A stretch of DNA of 64,000 bases. Source: Escherichia phage vB_Eco_mar003J3. The translations under genes were made by a program, and so were the position numbers. Below the pieces are notes generated by a model. It worked only from the letters and a program-made list of their open reading frames with translations, had not been told where the DNA came from and searched no databases. Shown here piece by piece: positions 2,834 to 37,289 of this stretch. The DNA lies in the sequence record NC_048203.1; one strand, written 5' to 3'. The stretch's first letter is position 1. Each line of letters opens with the position of its first letter.

Positions 2834-3343
2834 TTAATTATTTCGGGCATATTCCCCATGAAGTTTCTCTCTCAGTTGAATTAGAGCTTCATTTGCTGCT
2901 TCAGGAGTACTGTGCAGCCCTGCGGAGTATGACTTACCTTTAAACATTATTCTACCCTGCCACTGACCAGATGCTTTGTGGTAGGATACTCCCTTAAATC
3001 CGCTAGTATTCCTAGAAGATTTACTAGCATTATGAGTATTAGTGGTACTATCCGCTGCTCTTAAATTTAAAGGATGTATGTTTAACTTATTGCAGTCTTT
3101 ATGATCAATCATTTCCGGCCTATACCCATAATATAGTATAAATACTATGATATGAGCTAAGTAATCTTGGTGATCAACGTTAACTCTGATATACCCAGAG
3201 CTTTTGTGCAAAGATCCCGCAGGTTTATTGGCAAACTTAGTATTAAATATCTTCTCCTCTCTGGAGTTTCCGGAGAGCGGATTCCACACCAGTACACCAT
3301 CTTCTAAACGGAATCTATAAAGTATAGACTCATAGTCTAGCAT
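2834..3343 (-). CDS. HNH homing endonuclease
   Basis: 169 aa; IDHKDCNKLNIHPLNLRAA HNH core; C-terminal SGFKGVSYHK...W.GRI AP2-like region. Confidence 0.75.
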   Translation of the reverse strand: MLDYESILYRFRLEDGVLVWNPLSGNSREEKIFNTKFANKPAGSLHKSSGYIRVNVDHQDYLAHIIVFILYYGYRPEMIDHKDCNKLNIHPLNLRAADSTTNTHNASKSSRNTSGFKGVSYHKASGQWQGRIMFKGKSYSAGLHSTPEAANEALIQLREKLHGEYARNN

Positions 3344-3413: not shown

Positions 3414-3710
3414 TTACTGAACATTGCACTGATATACCTGTTTGATACGTGTCACTGACTTCTTAGTTGGGTTGATAGAAGAACCCTGCCACCAACGTGA
3501 CTCTGAGCTAAGAATAGCACCAGGAACAGCCTGCTCTTTTGGCAGAACAATATCAAAACACTGTTCACCCATATTATCTTTAATGTGTGACCAAATATCC
3601 AAAGTAAATCGTTCTAACTTATTACAAACCTGAACTTGACAAAGTTCCTGTTGCGGAGCAGCAAATACAGAAGTAGATACTAGAGTCAGTGCAAGTACAA
3701 TGCGTTTCAT
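3414..3710 (-). CDS. secreted small protein with N-terminal signal peptide
   Basis: 98 aa; MKRIVLALTLVSTSVFA-AP signal-peptidase-I-type leader; several Cys. Confidence 0.55.
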   Translation of the reverse strand: MKRIVLALTLVSTSVFAAPQQELCQVQVCNKLERFTLDIWSHIKDNMGEQCFDIVLPKEQAVPGAILSSESRWWQGSSINPTKKSVTRIKQVYQCNVQ

Positions 3711-3740
3711 GTTTGATTCCTCTCTCGAATTTATAAATAT

Positions 3741-3769
3741 ATTATATAGAAATTTTCTATATTAAGCAA
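3741..3769 (-). promoter_or_regulatory. T5-type early promoter (TTGCTT, 17 bp, TATAAT)
   Basis: Minus-strand reading. Confidence 0.6.
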
Positions 3770-3786
3770 GTGAAAATTTCTGTATA

Positions 3787-3809
3787 ATAGCCCTCGCTTA
3801 GAGGGCTAT
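3787..3809 (-). terminator. hairpin ATAGCCCTC-gctta-GAGGGCTAT just after pnuC stop
   Basis: Perfect 9-bp stem; flanking U-rich run is weak. Confidence 0.4.
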
Positions 3810-3816
3810 AACTACT

Positions 3817-4509
3817 TTATTTGTTAACGCGTACAAAGTATCCTTTATAGGCTCCCATAATAGAGTTACCTAAGAATACTAGCCACATTGCTAGGATTGC
3901 ATAAGATGCACCTGTAGATTGAGTAGTTACAAGCCAAATGTACACAGTACCAATGTTAATAGCAATCCAGATCAGCCACTGCTCGGCATACTGCTTAACC
4001 ATAAGCCACATAGCGATCACACTACCTACCGCAGTAAATGCATCCAACATTGGGAATGGATCAGCCGTAGTAGCTAAGAAACTACCATACCCTAACGTGG
4101 CTACTGCTAGAATCCCTAGAGTCAGCAGAGCTTGGACTTTAGTCAGAATCTTAGTTGGAACATCTGGCAGATTACTTGGCTTATTTTTATGCCATAAGTA
4201 CATTCCATAAAACTGCATAGGAACGTAGTATAGCAGGTTTAGTGCAGCGTTACCATAAAGATCTGCGTTTAAAGCTGTAATACCATAGGTAAGAACACCA
4301 ACTAAGCCCCAAATATAGTTAGAAACACGTCCTTTAGCAACCAAAATAACACAAACTACGTTGGTTATCGCAGTAGCCCAATCTAGAGGTGTACCATTAT
4401 AGTTAGCTAAACTAATGAAGGCAACCGCTATGAACAGCCACAGATATTCCAGAGGTTTCCAGTTTTTAAAGTCATTTACGAGATAGTTAGTCATATTAAA
4501 ACTCTCCAA
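3817..4509 (-). CDS. pnuC: PnuC-family nicotinamide riboside / NMN transporter
   Basis: 230 aa polytopic membrane protein; matches recalled E. coli PnuC in the YGxYxW and PFPxLD...WLxWIxINI regions; 14-nt overlap with upstream nadR-like gene. Confidence 0.85.
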   Translation of the reverse strand: MESFNMTNYLVNDFKNWKPLEYLWLFIAVAFISLANYNGTPLDWATAITNVVCVILVAKGRVSNYIWGLVGVLTYGITALNADLYGNAALNLLYYVPMQFYGMYLWHKNKPSNLPDVPTKILTKVQALLTLGILAVATLGYGSFLATTADPFPMLDAFTAVGSVIAMWLMVKQYAEQWLIWIAINIGTVYIWLVTTQSTGASYAILAMWLVFLGNSIMGAYKGYFVRVNK

Positions 4510-5551
4510 CGTTAAAGTGATGAATCAGCCAGTCTACTGCGTTTACTGCTTCGTCCATACGAACTTTGTAGTCCGGGGAGTCGATGTACACAGTACGCCC
4601 TTCAGGGAACTGATTTGGAAATTCTTTCTTCATCTGCTCGAACAGTTCAGAAGTAATTGAACGATCGGAGTTAATACGTAAACCATCATCTACCCACTTG
4701 ACAGTGGGCGCTAGAACAATTACTAAATCGTAATGTTCTTCTTTTGCAATTGCTGTAACCACAGGGTTCTTACGATGTTCATAAAGTCTGTGGTAGAACT
4801 CAGTAATAAAAGCATTTGTATCCACAAACATGATCTTATTTGCAGTACGTTCTGCCTCAAACTCTAGCTCTTTGTGTCTGAACGCAATTTTACTATAATC
4901 TTCGCTGGTAAGCAGATTTTCGTTACCAACTAGATCAACTTCACAATACGTTCGACCATATTCTTCTACCCACGAAGTGTTGTATAGCTTCGCAAGGTAT
5001 TTTGTTAAAGTAGTCTTTCCTGAGCTTTCAGTCCCAATGATTACAACCCTACGCACGTAATCTTTACGAACTACGCTAGGAAGAAACTCCCAATACTTCA
5101 TAAGATCATTACGAATCATTGTAGCTGAGATTGGAACACGAGTCCGATCAGAATCTACAATATAATGACCAAACTTCGGCAGATATTTCTTATATTCTGC
5201 ATCATAGTCTAGTTCGCTAGAGAAAATGGTGATCTCAGGCAAATGTCCGTAATTTTCATTAAGGATTCTAGCATATTCCGGCCAACCATTCGGATATTCA
5301 GGAATATCATCTTCAATAGTGTACTCTACCGAAATGTGCTCAATATCCGCGTAAGTTTGTTCTAACCAACGAAGTCGATTCTTTAACTGTAATACTTCCT
5401 GATCACGTGTGTTCTGCTTATCCAACCAACGATTATCATGACTAACTACAACAATAACTCGTTCACACATAGTTGCTGCTGTGTTTATTAGGTTAATATG
5501 ACCACGCGTTAATGGTGCGAACTTACCAATTACTAGACCAGTCTTAATCAT
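4496..5551 (-). CDS. nadR: NadR-like bifunctional NMN adenylyltransferase / ribosylnicotinamide kinase, no HTH domain
   Basis: GKFAPLTRGH nucleotidyltransferase motif, then Walker A GTESSGKTT kinase domain; start moved to MIKTG (SD GAGAGGAA) because the ORF-track extension to 5602 contains the promoter. Confidence 0.85.
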   Translation of the reverse strand: MIKTGLVIGKFAPLTRGHINLINTAATMCERVIVVVSHDNRWLDKQNTRDQEVLQLKNRLRWLEQTYADIEHISVEYTIEDDIPEYPNGWPEYARILNENYGHLPEITIFSSELDYDAEYKKYLPKFGHYIVDSDRTRVPISATMIRNDLMKYWEFLPSVVRKDYVRRVVIIGTESSGKTTLTKYLAKLYNTSWVEEYGRTYCEVDLVGNENLLTSEDYSKIAFRHKELEFEAERTANKIMFVDTNAFITEFYHRLYEHRKNPVVTAIAKEEHYDLVIVLAPTVKWVDDGLRINSDRSITSELFEQMKKEFPNQFPEGRTVYIDSPDYKVRMDEAVNAVDWLIHHFNVGEF

Positions 5552-5581
5552 ATTTGATTCCTCTCTCAAATTTATAAATAT

Positions 5582-5610
5582 ATTATACAGAGAATTTAGC
5601 ATTCAAGCAA
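5582..5610 (-). promoter_or_regulatory. T5-type early promoter (TTGCTT, 17 bp, TATAAT) for nadR-pnuC
   Basis: Minus-strand reading. Confidence 0.6.
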
Positions 5611-5769: not shown

Positions 5770-5800
5770 AAGCCCACGCTCTCGGAGGAAACGCGGGCTT
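5770..5800 (-). terminator. hairpin terminator after SPFH gene
   Basis: AAGCCC...GGGCTT stem followed on minus strand by UUUCUGUAUUU. Confidence 0.5.
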
Positions 5801-26371: not shown

Positions 26372-27211
26372 GTGAGGAATTGTACAGTGCGTAGATTAAT
26401 TATTATTAGCGGTGCAGGTTTGAGTGTTGGAAGTGGTGTACGAGCTTTTCGTACTGATACTGCTAGTGGTAAAGCACTGTGGGATGATTATGATCTAGAA
26501 GAAGTATGTAATATTCATGCCTTTCGTGGTAATTTTTATCATAAAACCCATATGTTTTACAACAAGCGTCGTGAAGAGCTAAAAACTGTTGAACCCAATC
26601 TTGCACATTTGCGTATTGGTGAATGGTATAAACAATATCCAGGTCAAGTAGTAAACTTGACTACCAATGTTGATGACCTTATTGAACGTGCTGGCGTTCC
26701 ACATAGTGACATTCTGCACATTCACGGATATTTAAAAGAGGTTGTTGTAGCTGACAGCTACAATAGTAGTAATAAACGAATTATTGATGTTGGGTATAAC
26801 TCTATTGACCCAGATGATTATAAATGGGTTAAACCTAATGTAATCTTCTTTGGTGAGCATGCTCCAGCATATACAGAAATGTACAATGTTTTTGATGGTA
26901 TTACCAGTCAAGATATGATCATTGTGGTTGGTTGCTCTAACCAAGTAATTAACTTCTACTGGGAATTATTTCCTGTTCTTAATTTGACTGCTGCCAAATT
27001 AATGGTAGTTAACTACTATGATAGTGCCCTGGCGACAGAGCCAGGCTATCAAGGTATGACTCGTAGTGAGATGTACCAGCTGGAAGAACGCGGTATCCCT
27101 TACTGGAGTAAAGGGGCTGTAGATGCCTTCAGTGACCCTGATTTTATTGCTCGTGTAGAAGCTCATCTAGAGGGTAGACCTTATATGCCGGGGAAACAAA
27201 TATGTCCATAA
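26372..27211 (+). CDS. Sir2-family NAD+-dependent deacylase / NAD-utilising enzyme
   Basis: 279 aa; ISGAGLSVGSGVRAFR (GAGIS...GIPxFR-like), TTNVDDL (TQNIDxL-like), HG dyad. Confidence 0.7.
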   Translation: MRNCTVRRLIIISGAGLSVGSGVRAFRTDTASGKALWDDYDLEEVCNIHAFRGNFYHKTHMFYNKRREELKTVEPNLAHLRIGEWYKQYPGQVVNLTTNVDDLIERAGVPHSDILHIHGYLKEVVVADSYNSSNKRIIDVGYNSIDPDDYKWVKPNVIFFGEHAPAYTEMYNVFDGITSQDMIIVVGCSNQVINFYWELFPVLNLTAAKLMVVNYYDSALATEPGYQGMTRSEMYQLEERGIPYWSKGAVDAFSDPDFIARVEAHLEGRPYMPGKQICP

Positions 27212-32627: not shown

Positions 32628-32844
32628 AAAGTGGGAAACAAGGAAGTTTCCAGTAAAAGAACGTAAAACTTCTGTTTACGATACTGCGGAGAAACTATGT
32701 AGGGTTGTACCACCTCGTCTCGCTGGCATCCCTAATGTCTCCATATGGTTACTTAAACAACGGAAGACTCGTGTGTCTCTTCGCATTGGCTTTGAGTTAG
32801 ATAAAGTCTATGCTGAACTTGCTTCTTTGCTCAAAGAATCATAA
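32611..32844 (+). CDS. hypothetical protein (77 aa)
   Basis: Start at MTVKNKK after GGAG; track start 32560 rejected. Confidence 0.4.
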   Translation: MTVKNKKWETRKFPVKERKTSVYDTAEKLCRVVPPRLAGIPNVSIWLLKQRKTRVSLRIGFELDKVYAELASLLKES

Positions 32845-32913
32845 AAATTTTATTTGCTTTCAGGAAAAATTTTCTGTATAATAGATTCATAAATTTGAGA
32901 GAGGAGTTTAAAT

Positions 32914-33618
32914 ATGGCTGGTTCTCGTAGAAAGAAACTTATCCATGAAATCCCTGATGAAACCTTTAAAAAGGTCATTGAACATCTGGAGAACGGTGGT
33001 ACTAAGAAAGCAGCATGTGAGATGCTCGGTGTTTCTTCTAACCCAACTATGGAACGAATGATCGAAGAATGGAGAGATCGTCAGGTTCAAGTTGCGGAAA
33101 TGAAAAAGAAGAAGCGTGGAACACTGATTGAGGGTGTTGAGCTTGCAAACGTAATTGAACAGTATCTTTCTGGTGATTCTTTTGAAGAAATTGCTGATCG
33201 TAACTATCGTTCTGTAGCGATGATTAAATCTGTTCTGGAACGTTATGGTGCTCTGCTTCGTTTAAACGATATTGTTGATCCATTGAATCCTCCGTTGATT
33301 CCTGATGATGCAATGGCAGAAGAATTTGAAGTTGGTGAACTTGTTTGGGTTCCTGGCTATCAGTGTATTGGTGAAATCAAGAAAGCAATGACCAACCCAG
33401 TTGGCTGCTACCGTGTTTGGTTGTTATCAGAAGGTAAACAACAGAACGTTCACTATATGCACTACGAATTAGCTTCTGTTAAACATCTGGAAAAGCTGGG
33501 TGTTGATGTTAAGGCTCTGGGCTTTAAGTGGAGTCGTGAAGAAGTTATCACGTTGGTTAATGAAGCTGTTAAAGCTGCCCTGAAACTAGATAAAGAGAAA
33601 GGAAAACGTCGTGAGTAA
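32914..33618 (+). CDS. DNA-binding protein with N-terminal HTH
   Basis: 234 aa; GGTKKAACEMLGVSSNPTMERMI helix-turn-helix-like. Confidence 0.45.
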   Translation: MAGSRRKKLIHEIPDETFKKVIEHLENGGTKKAACEMLGVSSNPTMERMIEEWRDRQVQVAEMKKKKRGTLIEGVELANVIEQYLSGDSFEEIADRNYRSVAMIKSVLERYGALLRLNDIVDPLNPPLIPDDAMAEEFEVGELVWVPGYQCIGEIKKAMTNPVGCYRVWLLSEGKQQNVHYMHYELASVKHLEKLGVDVKALGFKWSREEVITLVNEAVKAALKLDKEKGKRRE

Positions 33619-35124: not shown

Positions 35125-35343
35125 TTGATGAGAGGATCAATTATGGCAATGACAATAACACTTCCAAAGATTCAAGCAAAACTTAATTTGCTCTCCATAG
35201 CAAGAATCAATTACCAGGATAGTATCGGCACTCCAAACCAGAAAGCGTACAAAGATGCGTGGTTGAAAGAAGCTGCTGATTTAGCTGGTATGGCTGCGCA
35301 GTATAGTAAAGAACTCAAAATGGAAATCGCAGATGATGAATAA
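35125..35343 (+). CDS. hypothetical protein (72 aa)
   Basis: SD GAGAGGA upstream. Confidence 0.45.
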   Translation: MMRGSIMAMTITLPKIQAKLNLLSIARINYQDSIGTPNQKAYKDAWLKEAADLAGMAAQYSKELKMEIADDE

Positions 35344-36307
35344 TGTAAAAGACTTTATTAAACGTTGTCAAGAAGCGTACTACCAGGGAATGAGTCTTAT
35401 TTCCGATGAAGAATATGATCGTCTGATTAAAAGATTCCCACTAGAGGAAGAAATCGGACCGAAAGGTGATATCCCTCATTTGTATCGTATGTATTCTTTG
35501 CAGAAAGTCTATTACGATCGTGGTGATAAAGCTCCATTCAACCCACTTGGTCAGGTTGAAACTGATAAGTTAGATGGTTGTGCGATTTCTCTATTATATA
35601 TTAATGGTGAGTTTGTTCAAGCGTTAACTCGTGGTAACGGTATTCTAGGAAATGATGTAACGCATAATGTTAAAATGCTGAACATCCCCAAAACTATTTC
35701 CCAAAAAGTACCAACTCAAATCACTGGTGAAGTTCTCATTACTAAAGAAGTAGAGAACAAACGTAACTATGCTTCTGGTGCTATTAACCTGAAAGATAGT
35801 GATGATTTCATGCAACGTATTGGTGAAGGTGGTTTAATCTTCGTTGCATATGGTATCCAGTGTTCAGCGGAAACAGTCGGTATTACAGAAGCCTATTTAA
35901 AAGATATGCTTTGGCTAGAGAATGAGAACTTCTTGACAGTTGTTAATGTTCGTTCCTTTTTTAAATGGATTCCGACGGACGGTAAAGTTGTTCGTATTAA
36001 CGACAACAATAAATTCTTCCGTGAAGGTTGGACTAATAAATTTCCTCGTGGTGCATTTGCTATTAAAGAGGATGAAGAAGGCGAAATTACCACACTTGTT
36101 AAAGTTGAATGGCAAGTAGGGGCTTCTGGTAAAGTAACTCCAGTTGGTTATTTCGAGCCGGTGATTATTGATGATGCCACAATCGTTAAAGCAACTCTTA
36201 ATAACGTTGATTATATTAACGCTCTCGATTTAGAGATCGGTTGCCAGATTCGAGTGATTCGTGCTGGTGGTGTAATCCCTTGTATAGTAGAGCGAGTATA
36301 CGACTAA
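35333..36307 (+). CDS. NAD+-dependent DNA ligase, adenylation (N-terminal) subunit
   Basis: 324 aa; LISDEEYDRL Ia-like start and KxDG adenylation motif KLDG. Confidence 0.8.
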   Translation: MMNNVKDFIKRCQEAYYQGMSLISDEEYDRLIKRFPLEEEIGPKGDIPHLYRMYSLQKVYYDRGDKAPFNPLGQVETDKLDGCAISLLYINGEFVQALTRGNGILGNDVTHNVKMLNIPKTISQKVPTQITGEVLITKEVENKRNYASGAINLKDSDDFMQRIGEGGLIFVAYGIQCSAETVGITEAYLKDMLWLENENFLTVVNVRSFFKWIPTDGKVVRINDNNKFFREGWTNKFPRGAFAIKEDEEGEITTLVKVEWQVGASGKVTPVGYFEPVIIDDATIVKATLNNVDYINALDLEIGCQIRVIRAGGVIPCIVERVYD

Positions 36308-36357
36308 TTCGTAACCCTTTGCTACCCGTTTACCATGTCGGAATTATAAAGTGGTTA

Positions 36358-36386
36358 TTGACATTTTCGCCGCTTAGGTATATACT
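36358..36386 (+). promoter_or_regulatory. sigma70 promoter (TTGACA, 17 bp, TATACT) between ligase halves
   Basis: Plus-strand reading. Confidence 0.55.
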
Positions 36387-36450
36387 ATTATCATTCAGTT
36401 GAGGGATAGAAAGTTATGGCGAGGGTAAGCAAAGTTAGTTAAAATTGTAG

Positions 36451-36479
36451 TTGCTAAATGCTTAAATACTTGTTATAAT
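36451..36479 (+). promoter_or_regulatory. T5-type promoter (TTGCTA, 17 bp, TATAAT) between ligase halves
   Basis: Plus-strand reading. Confidence 0.55.
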
Positions 36480-36506
36480 ATTTATATAAATTGATAAGGA
36501 AGAAAT

Positions 36507-37289
36507 TTGATGAAAATCGAAATTCCAACACAATGTCCCTCTTGTGGTTCTAAGCTAGATCTTGTCAACGGGCAATTATTCTGTAGGAATAAGTCCAACT
36601 GTCCAGCACAATCAAGTAAGTTAATCGAGAACTTCTGCACAAAAATGAAGTTAAAGGGCTTTGGCCCGAAAACTATTGAGAAGCTGGAACTGACCAAGAT
36701 CTCAGAACTGTTTTACCTGACCGAAGAAGATTTGGTCGGAGCTGTGGGTAGCAAGGTTGCCGCTAAGTTGATTAGCGAGTTAAATACTAAGGTTCGCGGA
36801 GACATTGACTTTGGTTCGGTTCTCGGTTCTTTAGGAATTCCTCTTATTGGAGAGGTTGCAGCAAAGAAACTGTCCCAAAATTGCACTAGCTTCCACGATG
36901 TGAAGGCTGACGGCAAGGCTGGAGAAAATTACAAAACCTGGCTAAATTCCCCACAAGGCAAGGATGTTATTGAATTACCCTGGAAATTCTCAACTGGTAT
37001 TCGAGGTACTAAAGCTGATATCATCATTACGGATGATTTAGTTGCCCAGCCAAATGGAATCACGATCTGTATTACCGGATCTTTGCAAGATTTTGCAAAT
37101 CGAACGGATGCAACAAACTATTTAGAAAGTCTAGGATATACGGTTAAGAAATCCGTTACCAAAGACGTCAAATACCTAATCTGTGAGGATGAATCAAAAC
37201 GTTCTTCCTCATCTTATAAGAAAGCCGAAACGAATGGGATAGAAATCCTGTCGATTAAAGAACTATTGGAGAAAAATAATAATGTCTAA
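36507..37289 (+). CDS. NAD+-dependent DNA ligase, C-terminal subunit (Zn-finger, HhH, BRCT-like)
   Basis: 260 aa; CPSCGSKL...C..KSNCP zinc finger, then HhH-like and BRCT-like regions. Confidence 0.7.
   Translation: MMKIEIPTQCPSCGSKLDLVNGQLFCRNKSNCPAQSSKLIENFCTKMKLKGFGPKTIEKLELTKISELFYLTEEDLVGAVGSKVAAKLISELNTKVRGDIDFGSVLGSLGIPLIGEVAAKKLSQNCTSFHDVKADGKAGENYKTWLNSPQGKDVIELPWKFSTGIRGTKADIIITDDLVAQPNGITICITGSLQDFANRTDATNYLESLGYTVKKSVTKDVKYLICEDESKRSSSSYKKAETNGIEILSIKELLEKNNNV

What the first reader, a model, noticed from the sequence alone, without database searches (positions are those of the whole stretch)
3817..5610. Phage-encoded NAD+ salvage operon: PnuC transporter plus HTH-less NadR
Two overlapping minus-strand genes under their own T5-type promoter encode a PnuC-like NR/NMN importer and a NadR-like NMN adenylyltransferase/NR kinase that starts directly at the catalytic domain, without the N-terminal repressor HTH of recalled E. 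coli NadR. Together they would import nicotinamide riboside and convert it to NAD+ inside the infected cell. The window also carries a Sir2-like NAD-binding enzyme (26372-27211) and a split NAD+-dependent ligase (35333-37289), so NAD+ supply looks like a coordinated theme. A plausible role is to rebuild the NAD+ pool during infection, including against NAD+-depleting abortive-infection defences. Whether this module is already annotated for this phage group cannot be told from sequence.
Basis: partly seen in the sequence, partly recalled or inferred. Interest (0 to 1): 0.72.

Follow-up and report, generated by a model that had tools for sequence, protein, structure and literature searches.

The report
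Known phage NadR–PnuC NAD+ salvage operon
A T5-like (Epseptimavirus) phage carries a two-gene unit that should import the vitamin nicotinamide riboside and turn it into NAD+; the genes are real and intact, but they are already annotated, and their suggested role against NAD+-destroying defences is a published, still untested idea.

Summary
On the minus strand, a T5 early-type promoter (5610-5582) drives nadR (5551-4496, 351 aa) and then pnuC (4494-3817, 225 aa), ending at a hairpin (3809-3787).

- **NadR:** it passes the NCBIfam NadR equivalog cut-off. It keeps the NMN-adenylyltransferase and ribosylnicotinamide-kinase motifs, lacks the HTH domain, and models onto solved NadR structures (TM 0.81-0.83).
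- **PnuC:** it passes the Pfam and TIGR01528 cut-offs and keeps the WxxW(x)3N ligand motif.
- **Selection:** both genes are under strong purifying selection (dN/dS 0.03-0.05).

None of this is new.
- **Annotation:** about 200 GenBank records of T5-like phages, mostly genus Epseptimavirus, carry and annotate the pair, and PHROGs has families for both.
- **Structure:** PDB 9X6F/9X6H is a NadR 348/351 identical to this one.
- **Published hypothesis:** Osterman et al. 2024 name the phage NadR+PnuC operon as a possible further NAD+ reconstitution pathway "not examined".
- **HTH-less enzymes:** they are a known class (L. lactis NadR).

- The genes are 1 nt apart rather than overlapping.
- T5 itself lacks the module.
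- The NAD+ ligase is in about 436 records, against about 205 for NadR-PnuC, so the ligase is core and the module accessory.

A side observation: 39-bp promoter/5'UTR direct repeats flank the cassette, and phage NG_S8 has lost it by recombination within them.

The parts
5582..5610 (-). T5 early-type sigma-70 promoter: -35 TTGCTT (5610-5605), 17-nt spacer, -10 TATAAT (5587-5582), with an A-rich upstream tract
   Evidence: Read directly from the sequence. It is nearly identical to the annotated T5 promoter P15a, NC_005859 37802-37876.
5552..5581 (-). Conserved T5 early 5' leader ATATTTATAAATTTGAGAGAGGAATCAAAT, including the ribosome-binding site GAGAGAGGA
   Evidence: The core ATAAATTYGAGAGAGGA occurs 5 times in the window against 0.06 expected by chance. 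It aligns with the T5 P15a and P15b regions and with a second window promoter at 32889.
4496..5551 (-). nadR: bifunctional NMN adenylyltransferase / ribosylnicotinamide kinase, 351 aa, no HTH domain
   Evidence: NF005988 scores 255 bits against a cut-off of 201, on profile positions 65-407 of 411. PF01467 and PF13521 both match. It is 348/351 identical to PDB 9X6F, and matches H. influenzae NadR 1LW7 at E=8e-55. The motifs are GKFAPLTRGH 9-18, ISATMIR 141-147, Walker A GTESSGKT 173-180, D244 and WVDDGLR 286-292. The AF2 model has pLDDT 93 and TM 0.83 and 0.81 to 8X7F and 1LW7. dN/dS is 0.047.
3817..4494 (-). pnuC: Pnu-family nicotinamide riboside facilitator, 225 aa, about 8 hydrophobic segments
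   Evidence: PF04973 E=3.6e-43. TIGR01528 equivalog 120 bits against a cut-off of 42. N. mucosa PnuC 4QTN E=1e-32 over residues 9-215. The ligand motif WxxW(x)3N is WLIWIAIN 173-180 (motif defined in PMC5749112). phrog_1880 E=1e-72. dN/dS is 0.032.
3787..3809 (-). 9-bp G+C-rich hairpin directly after the pnuC stop; a probable but non-canonical terminator with a weak U tract
   Evidence: RNA fold of -17.1 kcal/mol, z = -4.7, with 0 of 200 shuffles folding as well. The terminator scanner did not call it because the tail is short of T.
5770..5800 (-). Intrinsic terminator of the upstream SPFH/band-7 gene; it insulates the nadR promoter from upstream transcription
   Evidence: 12-bp stem followed by TTCTGTATTT. 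Fold of -18.8 kcal/mol, z = -3.3.
5549..5587 (-). Left copy of a 39-bp direct repeat (-10 box, leader, RBS and ATG) bracketing the cassette
   Evidence: The pattern has exactly 2 matches in the window against 0 expected.
3708..3746 (-). Right copy of the 39-bp direct repeat; it serves as promoter and leader of the next gene (98-aa signal-peptide ORF, 3710-3414)
   Evidence: In phage NG_S8 nadR-pnuC is missing, and the junction switches from the left-copy to the right-copy variant inside this repeat.
26372..27211 (+). Context: Sir2-family protein (an NAD+-consuming enzyme family)
   Evidence: PF02146 E=3.4e-24. Annotated as Sir2-like in related phages.
35333..36307 (+). Context: NAD+-dependent DNA ligase subunit A (adenylation and OB domains)
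   Evidence: PF01653 and PF03120. Found at >=80% identity in about 436 phage records.
36507..37289 (+). Context: NAD+-dependent DNA ligase subunit B (HhH and BRCT domains)
   Evidence: PF00533, PF12738 and PF12826.

Best explanation
This is a self-contained, early-expressed nicotinamide riboside (NR) salvage unit of an Epseptimavirus (T5-like) phage. Host RNA polymerase reads a strong T5 early promoter (homologous to T5 P15a) and makes one mRNA for nadR and pnuC, whose stop and start codons are 1 nt apart. PnuC inserts in the inner membrane and lets external NR diffuse in. The kinase domain of NadR phosphorylates NR to NMN, which traps it in the cell. The adenylyltransferase domain then joins NMN and ATP to give NAD+. 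The phage NadR has no HTH domain and its gene sits behind a phage promoter, so the pathway escapes the host's NadR-mediated repression. It can also still be switched on after a T5-like phage has shut down and degraded the host genome. The net effect is to sustain or raise NAD+ in the infected cell. That NAD+ serves the phage's own users (NAD+-dependent ligase, Sir2-like protein) and may buffer NAD+ depletion. Shown here: gene structure, family membership, intact catalytic and ligand motifs, fold, purifying selection, promoter homology, and the same gene pair and order in the unrelated Vibrio phage ICP1. Inferred: NR specificity, enzyme activities, timing, and any effect on NAD+ levels or defence.
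For: Family scores are above the curated cut-offs for NadR (NF005988) and PnuC (TIGR01528, PF04973). All NMNAT and RNK motifs and the PnuC WxxW(x)3N motif are present, and they are invariant or nearly so across 16 and 43 homologues. The AF2 model (pLDDT 93) superposes on the full length of NadR structures. A 99%-identical protein has been deposited in the PDB as a nicotinamide-nucleotide adenylyltransferase. dN/dS is 0.047 for nadR and 0.032 for pnuC at dS above 1. The promoter is near-identical to annotated T5 P15a. The nadR-then-pnuC pair recurs in ICP1 at 47% and 34% identity. The mechanism of facilitated diffusion by PnuC plus metabolic trapping by NadR, and the activity of a natural HTH-less NadR, are established for bacterial homologues (PMC7221760 and PMC5749112).
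Against: No activity, transport or NAD+ measurement for the phage proteins was found in the searchable literature. TIGR01526 (the NadR NMNAT equivalog-domain model) scores 273 bits, below its cut-off of 341. The phage PnuC scores far below the enterobacterial PnuC subfamily cut-off (NF011926, 66 against 335), so its specificity is inferred rather than shown. By established knowledge, not tested here, the Salmonella and E. coli hosts already encode NadR and PnuC, so the added benefit is not obvious. About half of the T5-like phages, including T5, do without the module.
Confidence: 0.8

Rival explanations
1. Dedicated counter-defence: the operon exists mainly to defeat NAD+-depleting abortive-infection systems (SIR2, TIR and SEFIR effectors) by refilling NAD+ from imported NR. 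This would make it a third NAD+ 'reconstitution' route alongside NARP1 and NARP2.
For: Osterman et al. 2024 proposed exactly this for NadR+PnuC operons in BASEL phages, while proving it for NARP1 and NARP2. Iyer et al. 2022 list phage NadR among the NAD+-synthesis counter-measures. The module is accessory: it is present in about 205 of about 436 related phages, sits in a variable locus, and is gained or lost as a cassette. That pattern is typical of anti-defence genes.
Against: The NADase products are ADP-ribose and nicotinamide. NadR uses neither, so rescue would depend on external NR and on synthesis outrunning the NADase. The role was declared untested in 2024, and no later test was found. 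NARP2 raises NAD+ even without any defence system, which shows that such pathways need not be defence-specific.
Confidence: 0.4
2. Ligase-coupled NMN recycling: the main substrate is internal NMN, released each time the phage NAD+-dependent ligase seals a nick. The NadR adenylyltransferase domain re-adenylates it, so that ligation is in effect paid for with ATP. On this view PnuC and the kinase domain are secondary.
For: The phage encodes a two-subunit NAD+-dependent ligase. NAD+ ligases release NMN plus AMP, which is established enzymology. NadR retains a complete NMNAT domain.
Against: The ligase is present in about 436 related phage records, but NadR in only about 205, and T5 has the ligase without NadR. 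The kinase domain and PnuC are under purifying selection as strong as the NMNAT domain's gene, and the nadR-pnuC linkage is conserved in ICP1. Both points argue that NR import matters.
Confidence: 0.25
3. Misleading annotation: the proteins have drifted to other substrates. NadR might adenylate or phosphorylate a different nucleotide, and the Pnu protein might carry another vitamin or nucleoside. This happened with NARP1, whose Pfam labels turned out to be wrong.
For: The Pnu family includes thiamine (PnuT) transporters. Osterman et al. showed that domain labels misled for Adps and Namat. TIGR01526 and NF011926 both score below their cut-offs.
Against: All substrate-related motifs are retained, and the equivalog models NF005988 and TIGR01528 are passed. 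The protein is 29-33% identical in structural alignment to characterised NadR enzymes, with full-length fold agreement. The PDB depositors name the 99%-identical protein an NMN adenylyltransferase.
Confidence: 0.07

Closest known systems
nadR-pnuC pair of Epseptimavirus phages (Seafire gp150/gp151, EPS7, Stitch, SH9; BASEL phage GreteKellenberger bas26_0086/0087); PHROGs 3462 and 1880; PDB 9X6F/9X6H
   Same: This is the same module. The DNA is 96-98% identical over the whole unit, and the starts, gene order, promoter and neighbours are the same. The NadR protein is 99% identical to the UniRef/GenBank cluster and to the PDB chain.
   Different: Nothing of substance differs. There are 3 amino-acid differences from the PDB chain. 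Some records mislabel the protein 'NadR transcriptional regulator', although it has no DNA-binding domain.
Bacterial HTH-less bifunctional NadR (Lactococcus lactis NadR, PDB 6GYE/6GYF/6GZO; H. influenzae NadR crystal form 1LW7)
   Same: It has the same two-domain NMNAT + RNK architecture, the same motifs and the same fold. [quoted passage not shown] The closest cellular homologue found is a 349-aa, HTH-less protein on a 2.6-Mb chromosome, 57% identical.
   Different: The phage gene is phage-borne, driven by a phage early promoter, and fused into an operon with pnuC. It uses T rather than H at the first position of the (H/T)xGH motif.
E. coli / Salmonella trifunctional NadR and the nadA-pnuC operon
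   Same: The enzymatic chemistry and the transporter family are the same, and the NF005988 equivalog is passed.
   Different: There is no HTH repressor domain, since the match starts at profile position 65. pnuC is linked to nadR rather than to nadA. The phage PnuC is not of the enterobacterial subfamily (NF011926, 66 bits against a cut-off of 335). The pair is therefore not a recent capture from the host. Its G+C equals the phage average.
Phage NAD+ reconstitution pathways NARP1 (Adps+Namat) and NARP2 (Nampt+Nmnat, KVP40 type)
   Same: All are two-gene phage units that end in NAD+, and NARP2 shares the final NMN adenylylation step. The NadR-PnuC pair is proposed in the same paper as a further such pathway.
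   Different: The input is imported NR, not the NADase products ADPR and nicotinamide. One of the two genes is a transporter rather than an enzyme. No counter-defence phenotype has been demonstrated.

Membership tests
NadR (bifunctional NMNAT / ribosylnicotinamide kinase) | Curated whole-protein profile score above the cut-off | tested here: met
   NF005988 scores 255.1 bits against a cut-off of 201. The narrower TIGR01526 scores 273 bits against a cut-off of 341 and is not reached.
NadR (bifunctional NMNAT / ribosylnicotinamide kinase) | NMNAT nucleotidyltransferase motifs (H/T)xGH and ISxTxxR | tested here: met
   GKFAPLTRGH at 9-18 and ISATMIR at 141-147. G17, H18, A143 and R147 are invariant in 43 homologues.
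NadR (bifunctional NMNAT / ribosylnicotinamide kinase) | RNK P-loop kinase: Walker A, Walker B Asp and the LID segment | tested here: met
   GTESSGKT at 173-180, D244 invariant, and WVDDGLR at 286-292. The motif definitions come from PMC7221760.
NadR (bifunctional NMNAT / ribosylnicotinamide kinase) | Two-domain NadR fold | tested here: met
   The AF2 model has pLDDT 93. Foldseek gives TM 0.83 to 8X7F and 0.81 to 1LW7 over about 350 columns.
NadR (bifunctional NMNAT / ribosylnicotinamide kinase) | NR kinase and NMN adenylyltransferase activity | not testable with these tools
   PDB 9X6F/9X6H (99% identical) exists, but no accompanying paper was found in the library.
Trifunctional enterobacterial NadR (repressor) | N-terminal HTH DNA-binding domain (about 60 residues) | tested here: not met
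   The match begins at profile position 65 of 411. Upstream of ATG 5551 lie the leader and promoter, and the only in-frame extension is 17 codons. All close homologues also start at the catalytic domain.
PnuC (nicotinamide riboside transporter, Pnu family) | Curated profile score above the cut-off | tested here: met
   PF04973 scores 148 bits against 27.3, and the TIGR01528 equivalog scores 120.2 bits against 42.45.
PnuC (nicotinamide riboside transporter, Pnu family) | WxxW(x)3D/N ligand-binding motif in TM6 | tested here: met
   WLIWIAIN at residues 173-180. It aligns with QWALWIVVN of 4QTN. The motif is defined in PMC5749112.
PnuC (nicotinamide riboside transporter, Pnu family) | Seven-TM core (plus an optional N-terminal TM) | tested here: inconclusive
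   A Kyte-Doolittle scan gives about 8 hydrophobic segments, and the alignment to 4QTN spans residues 9-215. No dedicated topology predictor or structure model was run.
PnuC (nicotinamide riboside transporter, Pnu family) | Specificity for nicotinamide riboside rather than thiamine or another vitamin | not testable with these tools
   This is inferred from the equivalog model and from operon linkage to nadR in two unrelated phage lineages.
Phage NAD+ reconstitution / counter-defence pathway (NARP-like) | Restores NAD+ and rescues the phage from NAD+-depleting defence systems | not testable with these tools
   It is only hypothesised in the literature. No test was found.
T5 early promoter class | TTGCTT -35, 17-nt spacer, TATAAT -10, A-rich upstream tract and the conserved ATAAATTTGAGAGAGGA leader | tested here: met
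   Near-identity to annotated T5 P15a over about 80 nt. Promoter activity itself was not tested.

The most novel reading that the evidence does not exclude
The most novel reading still open is this. NadR-PnuC is a true third phage counter-measure to NAD+-depleting immunity, and it works by import rather than by recycling the breakdown products. Its efficacy would then depend on nicotinamide riboside in the environment (for example the gut). The NMNAT domain would also recycle NMN released by the phage's own NAD+ ligase. The cassette would spread and be lost among T5-like phages by recombination between the repeated promoter/leader sequences that flank it. The counter-defence part has already been proposed in print (Osterman et al. 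2024). Only the nutrient dependence, the ligase coupling and the cassette mechanics would be new.
Probability: 0.3. Interest if true: 0.5.

Novelty: already known. Interest (0 to 1): 0.2.

Why it matters
As a genome annotation it adds nothing, because the pair is named in hundreds of records and one protein has a deposited structure. Its residual value is experimental. The NadR-PnuC operon is the one phage NAD+ pathway flagged in the 2024 NARP study that I could not find tested. Epseptimaviruses offer convenient material for that test: BASEL phages with the module, T5 without it, and the natural deletion NG_S8. A positive result would show that a phage can counter NAD+ depletion with an imported vitamin, which would tie defence outcome to nutrient availability.

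Tried and rejected
- **Longest-ORF start for nadR (ATG 5602):** rejected. It lies over the -10 and -35 boxes, has no RBS, and is not used by RefSeq or by the PDB construct.
- **TTG 4509 start for pnuC, which would make the genes overlap:** rejected in favour of ATG 4494, which has a GGAGAG RBS.
- **Generic promoter scan:** it did not report the real promoter, because TTGCTT matches only 3 of 6 positions of the consensus. Homology to T5 P15a was used instead.
- **Generic terminator scan:** it missed the post-pnuC hairpin, which was then shown by folding.
- **Literature searches for an experimental test:** the queries were 'NARP3', NadR+PnuC+phage, NadR+NR+NAD+ depletion, NadR+anti-defense and '9X6F'. 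They found only the untested hypothesis and surveys.
- **Release date of 9X6F from the Foldseek PDB library:** the entry is not in that copy, which holds releases up to 2026-04-08. It is probably a later release, but this is an inference.
- **Recent capture from the enterobacterial host:** rejected. The PnuC is not of the enterobacterial subfamily, the NadR is HTH-less with its best cellular match at only 57%, and the G+C equals the phage mean.
- **The 98-aa signal-peptide ORF (3414-3710) as a third member of the module:** not supported. It has its own promoter and persists in NG_S8, which lacks nadR-pnuC.
Full report
**What is in the sequence**

Between 3817 and 5610 the minus strand carries two adjacent ORFs. 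The upstream one is best started at ATG 5551, which follows the ribosome-binding site GAGAGAGGA. It runs to the stop at 4498-4496 and gives 351 aa. The longer ORF from ATG 5602 would begin inside the promoter and is rejected.

The downstream ORF is best started at ATG 4494, seven bases after GGAGAG. It ends at 3817 and gives 225 aa. With these starts the genes lie 1 nt apart (TAA-T-ATG) rather than overlapping. RefSeq annotates the same starts in phage Seafire.

The unit has clear boundaries.
- Upstream is a clean intrinsic terminator belonging to the neighbouring SPFH/band-7 gene (5800-5770).
- Next comes the promoter: TTGCTT (5610-5605), 17 nt, then TATAAT (5587-5582).
- Downstream of pnuC is a 9-bp G+C-rich hairpin (3809-3787; -17.1 kcal/mol, z = -4.7) with only a weak U tract.
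- It is followed immediately by another promoter of the same type, serving a 98-aa signal-peptide ORF.

**What the genes are**

The 351-aa protein matches the NCBIfam NadR equivalog NF005988 at 255 bits (cut-off 201). The match covers profile positions 65-407 of 411, so the first ~64 profile positions, which hold the HTH repressor domain, have no counterpart. Pfam finds the cytidylyltransferase-like domain and the AAA_28 kinase domain.

The catalytic signatures are all present:
- GKFAPLTRGH (9-18)
- ISATMIR (141-147)
- Walker A GTESSGKT (173-180)
- Walker B D244
- LID segment WVDDGLR (286-292)

Their key residues are invariant or nearly so across 16 and 43 homologues, which fall to 43-45% identity. 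An AlphaFold model built on that alignment (pLDDT 93) superposes over its full length on solved NadR structures: TM 0.83 to 8X7F, 0.81 to 1LW7 and 0.73-0.76 to L. lactis NadR.

The 225-aa protein matches Pfam NMN_transporter (E=3.6e-43) and the TIGR01528 PnuC equivalog (120 bits, cut-off 42). It matches the Neisseria mucosa PnuC structure 4QTN at E=1e-32. It also keeps the ligand-binding motif WxxW(x)3D/N as WLIWIAIN.

Comparison with the diverged allele in phage UTK0010 gives dN/dS of 0.047 for nadR and 0.032 for pnuC, at dS above 1. Both genes are therefore maintained by selection.

**The promoter**

The 80 nt upstream of nadR are almost identical to the annotated promoter P15a of phage T5. 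The transcribed leader ATAAATTTGAGAGAGGA recurs five times in the window, against 0.06 expected by chance. From my own recollection, this leader is also that of the classic T5 PN25 promoter.

**Where it comes from and how widespread it is**

The region is 96-98% identical to Salmonella and Escherichia phages of the genus Epseptimavirus (Demerecviridae, Markadamsvirinae), such as Seafire, EPS7, Stitch and SH9.
- About 200 records carry the whole unit.
- About 230 further T5-like records share only the flanks.
- NadR at >=80% identity occurs in about 205 records, against about 436 for ligase subunit A.
- T5 itself lacks the module. At the same place P15a drives a Toprim-domain gene (T5.076), followed by an opposite-strand three-gene cassette.
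- The BASEL phage GreteKellenberger has both cassettes.

The module is thus an accessory cassette in a variable locus, largely a trait of one genus. More distant NadR homologues occur in about 570 other phage records, including jumbo phages, Bacillus and Enterococcus phages and Vibrio phage ICP1. In ICP1 the same nadR-then-pnuC pair is present at 47% and 34% identity but is annotated only as hypothetical.

The nearest cellular homologue found is 57% identical and also lacks the HTH. It sits among housekeeping genes on a 2.6-Mb chromosome. The module's G+C equals the phage average, and the PnuC is not of the enterobacterial subfamily. This is therefore not a recent theft from the host.

**How it most likely works**

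The bacterial pathway is well established. PnuC is a facilitator for nicotinamide riboside. NadR's kinase domain traps the substrate as NMN, and its adenylyltransferase domain makes NAD+. A natural HTH-less NadR from L. lactis is active (PMC7221760, PMC5749112).

Everything testable in the sequence says the phage copies can do the same. They sit behind a phage early promoter and lack the repressor domain. From these two facts I infer that the pathway is independent of host NAD+-responsive regulation. I also infer that it does not need an intact host genome, which T5-like phages destroy early (established knowledge of T5, not tested here).

The purpose is the uncertain part.
- **General NAD+ supply** for phage enzymes is the safest reading.
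- **Counter-defence** against NADase effectors is attractive, and the module's accessory, cassette-like distribution fits it. However, NADases yield ADP-ribose and nicotinamide, which NadR cannot use. Rescue would therefore need external riboside.
- **Recycling of ligase-derived NMN** is chemically neat. It is undercut by the many related phages, T5 included, that have the ligase without NadR.

**Comparison with what is known**

This is not new.
- GenBank and RefSeq records name the two genes.
- PHROGs has families for both under 'auxiliary metabolic gene'.
- UniRef clusters the protein under Epseptimavirus.
- PDB 9X6F/9X6H holds a chain 348/351 identical to it. That entry is absent from a PDB copy ending 2026-04-08, so it is probably very recent.
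- Iyer et al. 2022 list NadR among phage NAD+-synthesis enzymes.
- A 2024 jumbo-phage study describes pnuC-nadR clusters.
- Osterman et al. 2024 state that phage NadR genes usually sit in an operon with PnuC and may form another NAD+ pathway. They show the BASEL phages that carry it (Fig. S3B) and say it was not examined.

My searches found no later test. Some records call the protein 'NadR transcriptional regulator', which is wrong for an HTH-less protein.

**Side observations**

The cassette is bracketed by two copies of a 39-bp sequence made of the -10 box, leader, RBS and ATG (5587-5549 and 3746-3708). There are two matches against none expected. In Epseptimavirus NG_S8 nadR-pnuC is absent. 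Its single hybrid promoter has the nadR-type -35 and spacer joined to the orf98-type leader, which is the signature of recombination within the repeat.

Synonymous divergence between the window and UTK0010 is 1.2-1.5 for nadR-pnuC but 0.25 for the adjacent orf98. The cassette alleles therefore have a different history from their flank.

**Verdict**

The novelty class is 'already known'. Interest is low (0.2). The remaining value lies in an experiment that the published literature I could search has proposed but not reported.

Noticed in passing
window 5549-5587 and 3708-3746 (minus strand); L005 (LC788711, phage NG_S8) 1840-2140: A 39-bp direct repeat (-10 box, 5' leader, RBS and ATG of the T5 early promoter type) flanks the nadR-pnuC cassette. 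Phage NG_S8 lacks the cassette, and its single hybrid promoter switches from the left-copy to the right-copy variant inside the repeat. This suggests that repeated promoter/leader sequences act as recombination sites for gain and loss of accessory genes.
   Followed up: partly
window 3414-5551 compared with L010 (NC_111488, phage UTK0010) 1501-3636: Synonymous divergence is 1.51 for nadR and 1.17 for pnuC, but only 0.25 for the adjacent 98-aa ORF. The cassette alleles are much older than their flank, which points to mosaic exchange of the cassette between related phages.
   Followed up: partly
window 3414-3710 (minus strand): A 98-aa ORF with a signal peptide and several cysteines (phrog_6894, unknown function, no Pfam hit) has its own copy of the early promoter. 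It sits next to pnuC in Epseptimaviruses but persists in NG_S8, which lacks nadR-pnuC. It was not found in T5 at this locus.
   Followed up: partly
L004 (NC_005859, phage T5) 3280-5672; L003 (MZ501072, GreteKellenberger) 3455-5206: The locus between the SPFH gene and the tRNA cluster is a variable island. T5 has a Toprim-domain gene under P15a plus an opposite-strand three-gene cassette under P12. The window has nadR-pnuC. GreteKellenberger has both nadR-pnuC and the opposite-strand cassette.
   Followed up: partly
L011 (MW794141, Vibrio phage ICP1) 2983-4743: ICP1 carries the same nadR-then-pnuC pair (47% and 34% identity to the window proteins), but both genes are annotated only as 'hypothetical protein'. 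About 350 Vibrio phage records match NadR.
   Followed up: partly
window 2834-3343 (minus strand): An HNH + AP2-domain homing endonuclease gene lies between the 98-aa ORF and the tRNA genes. It is present in Seafire but absent at this spot in several close relatives, whose matches begin about 55-65 nt into the query.
   Followed up: no
window 26372-27211: The Sir2-like gene exists as at least two very different alleles among T5-like phages. About 224 records are >=80% identical to the window's version. Others, such as Stitch, which also carries NadR, are only about 51% identical.
   Followed up: no
window 32830-32925 (plus strand): A promoter very close to my recollection of the classic T5 PN25 promoter (TTGCTTTCAGGAAAAATTTTCTGTATAATAGATTCATAAATTTGAGAGAGGAG) precedes a plus-strand gene.
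   Followed up: no
GenBank records listed (e.g. MN197465, MF431736): Many records label this HTH-less enzyme 'NadR transcriptional regulator' or simply 'transcriptional regulator'. This annotation error has been propagated by similarity.
   Followed up: yes
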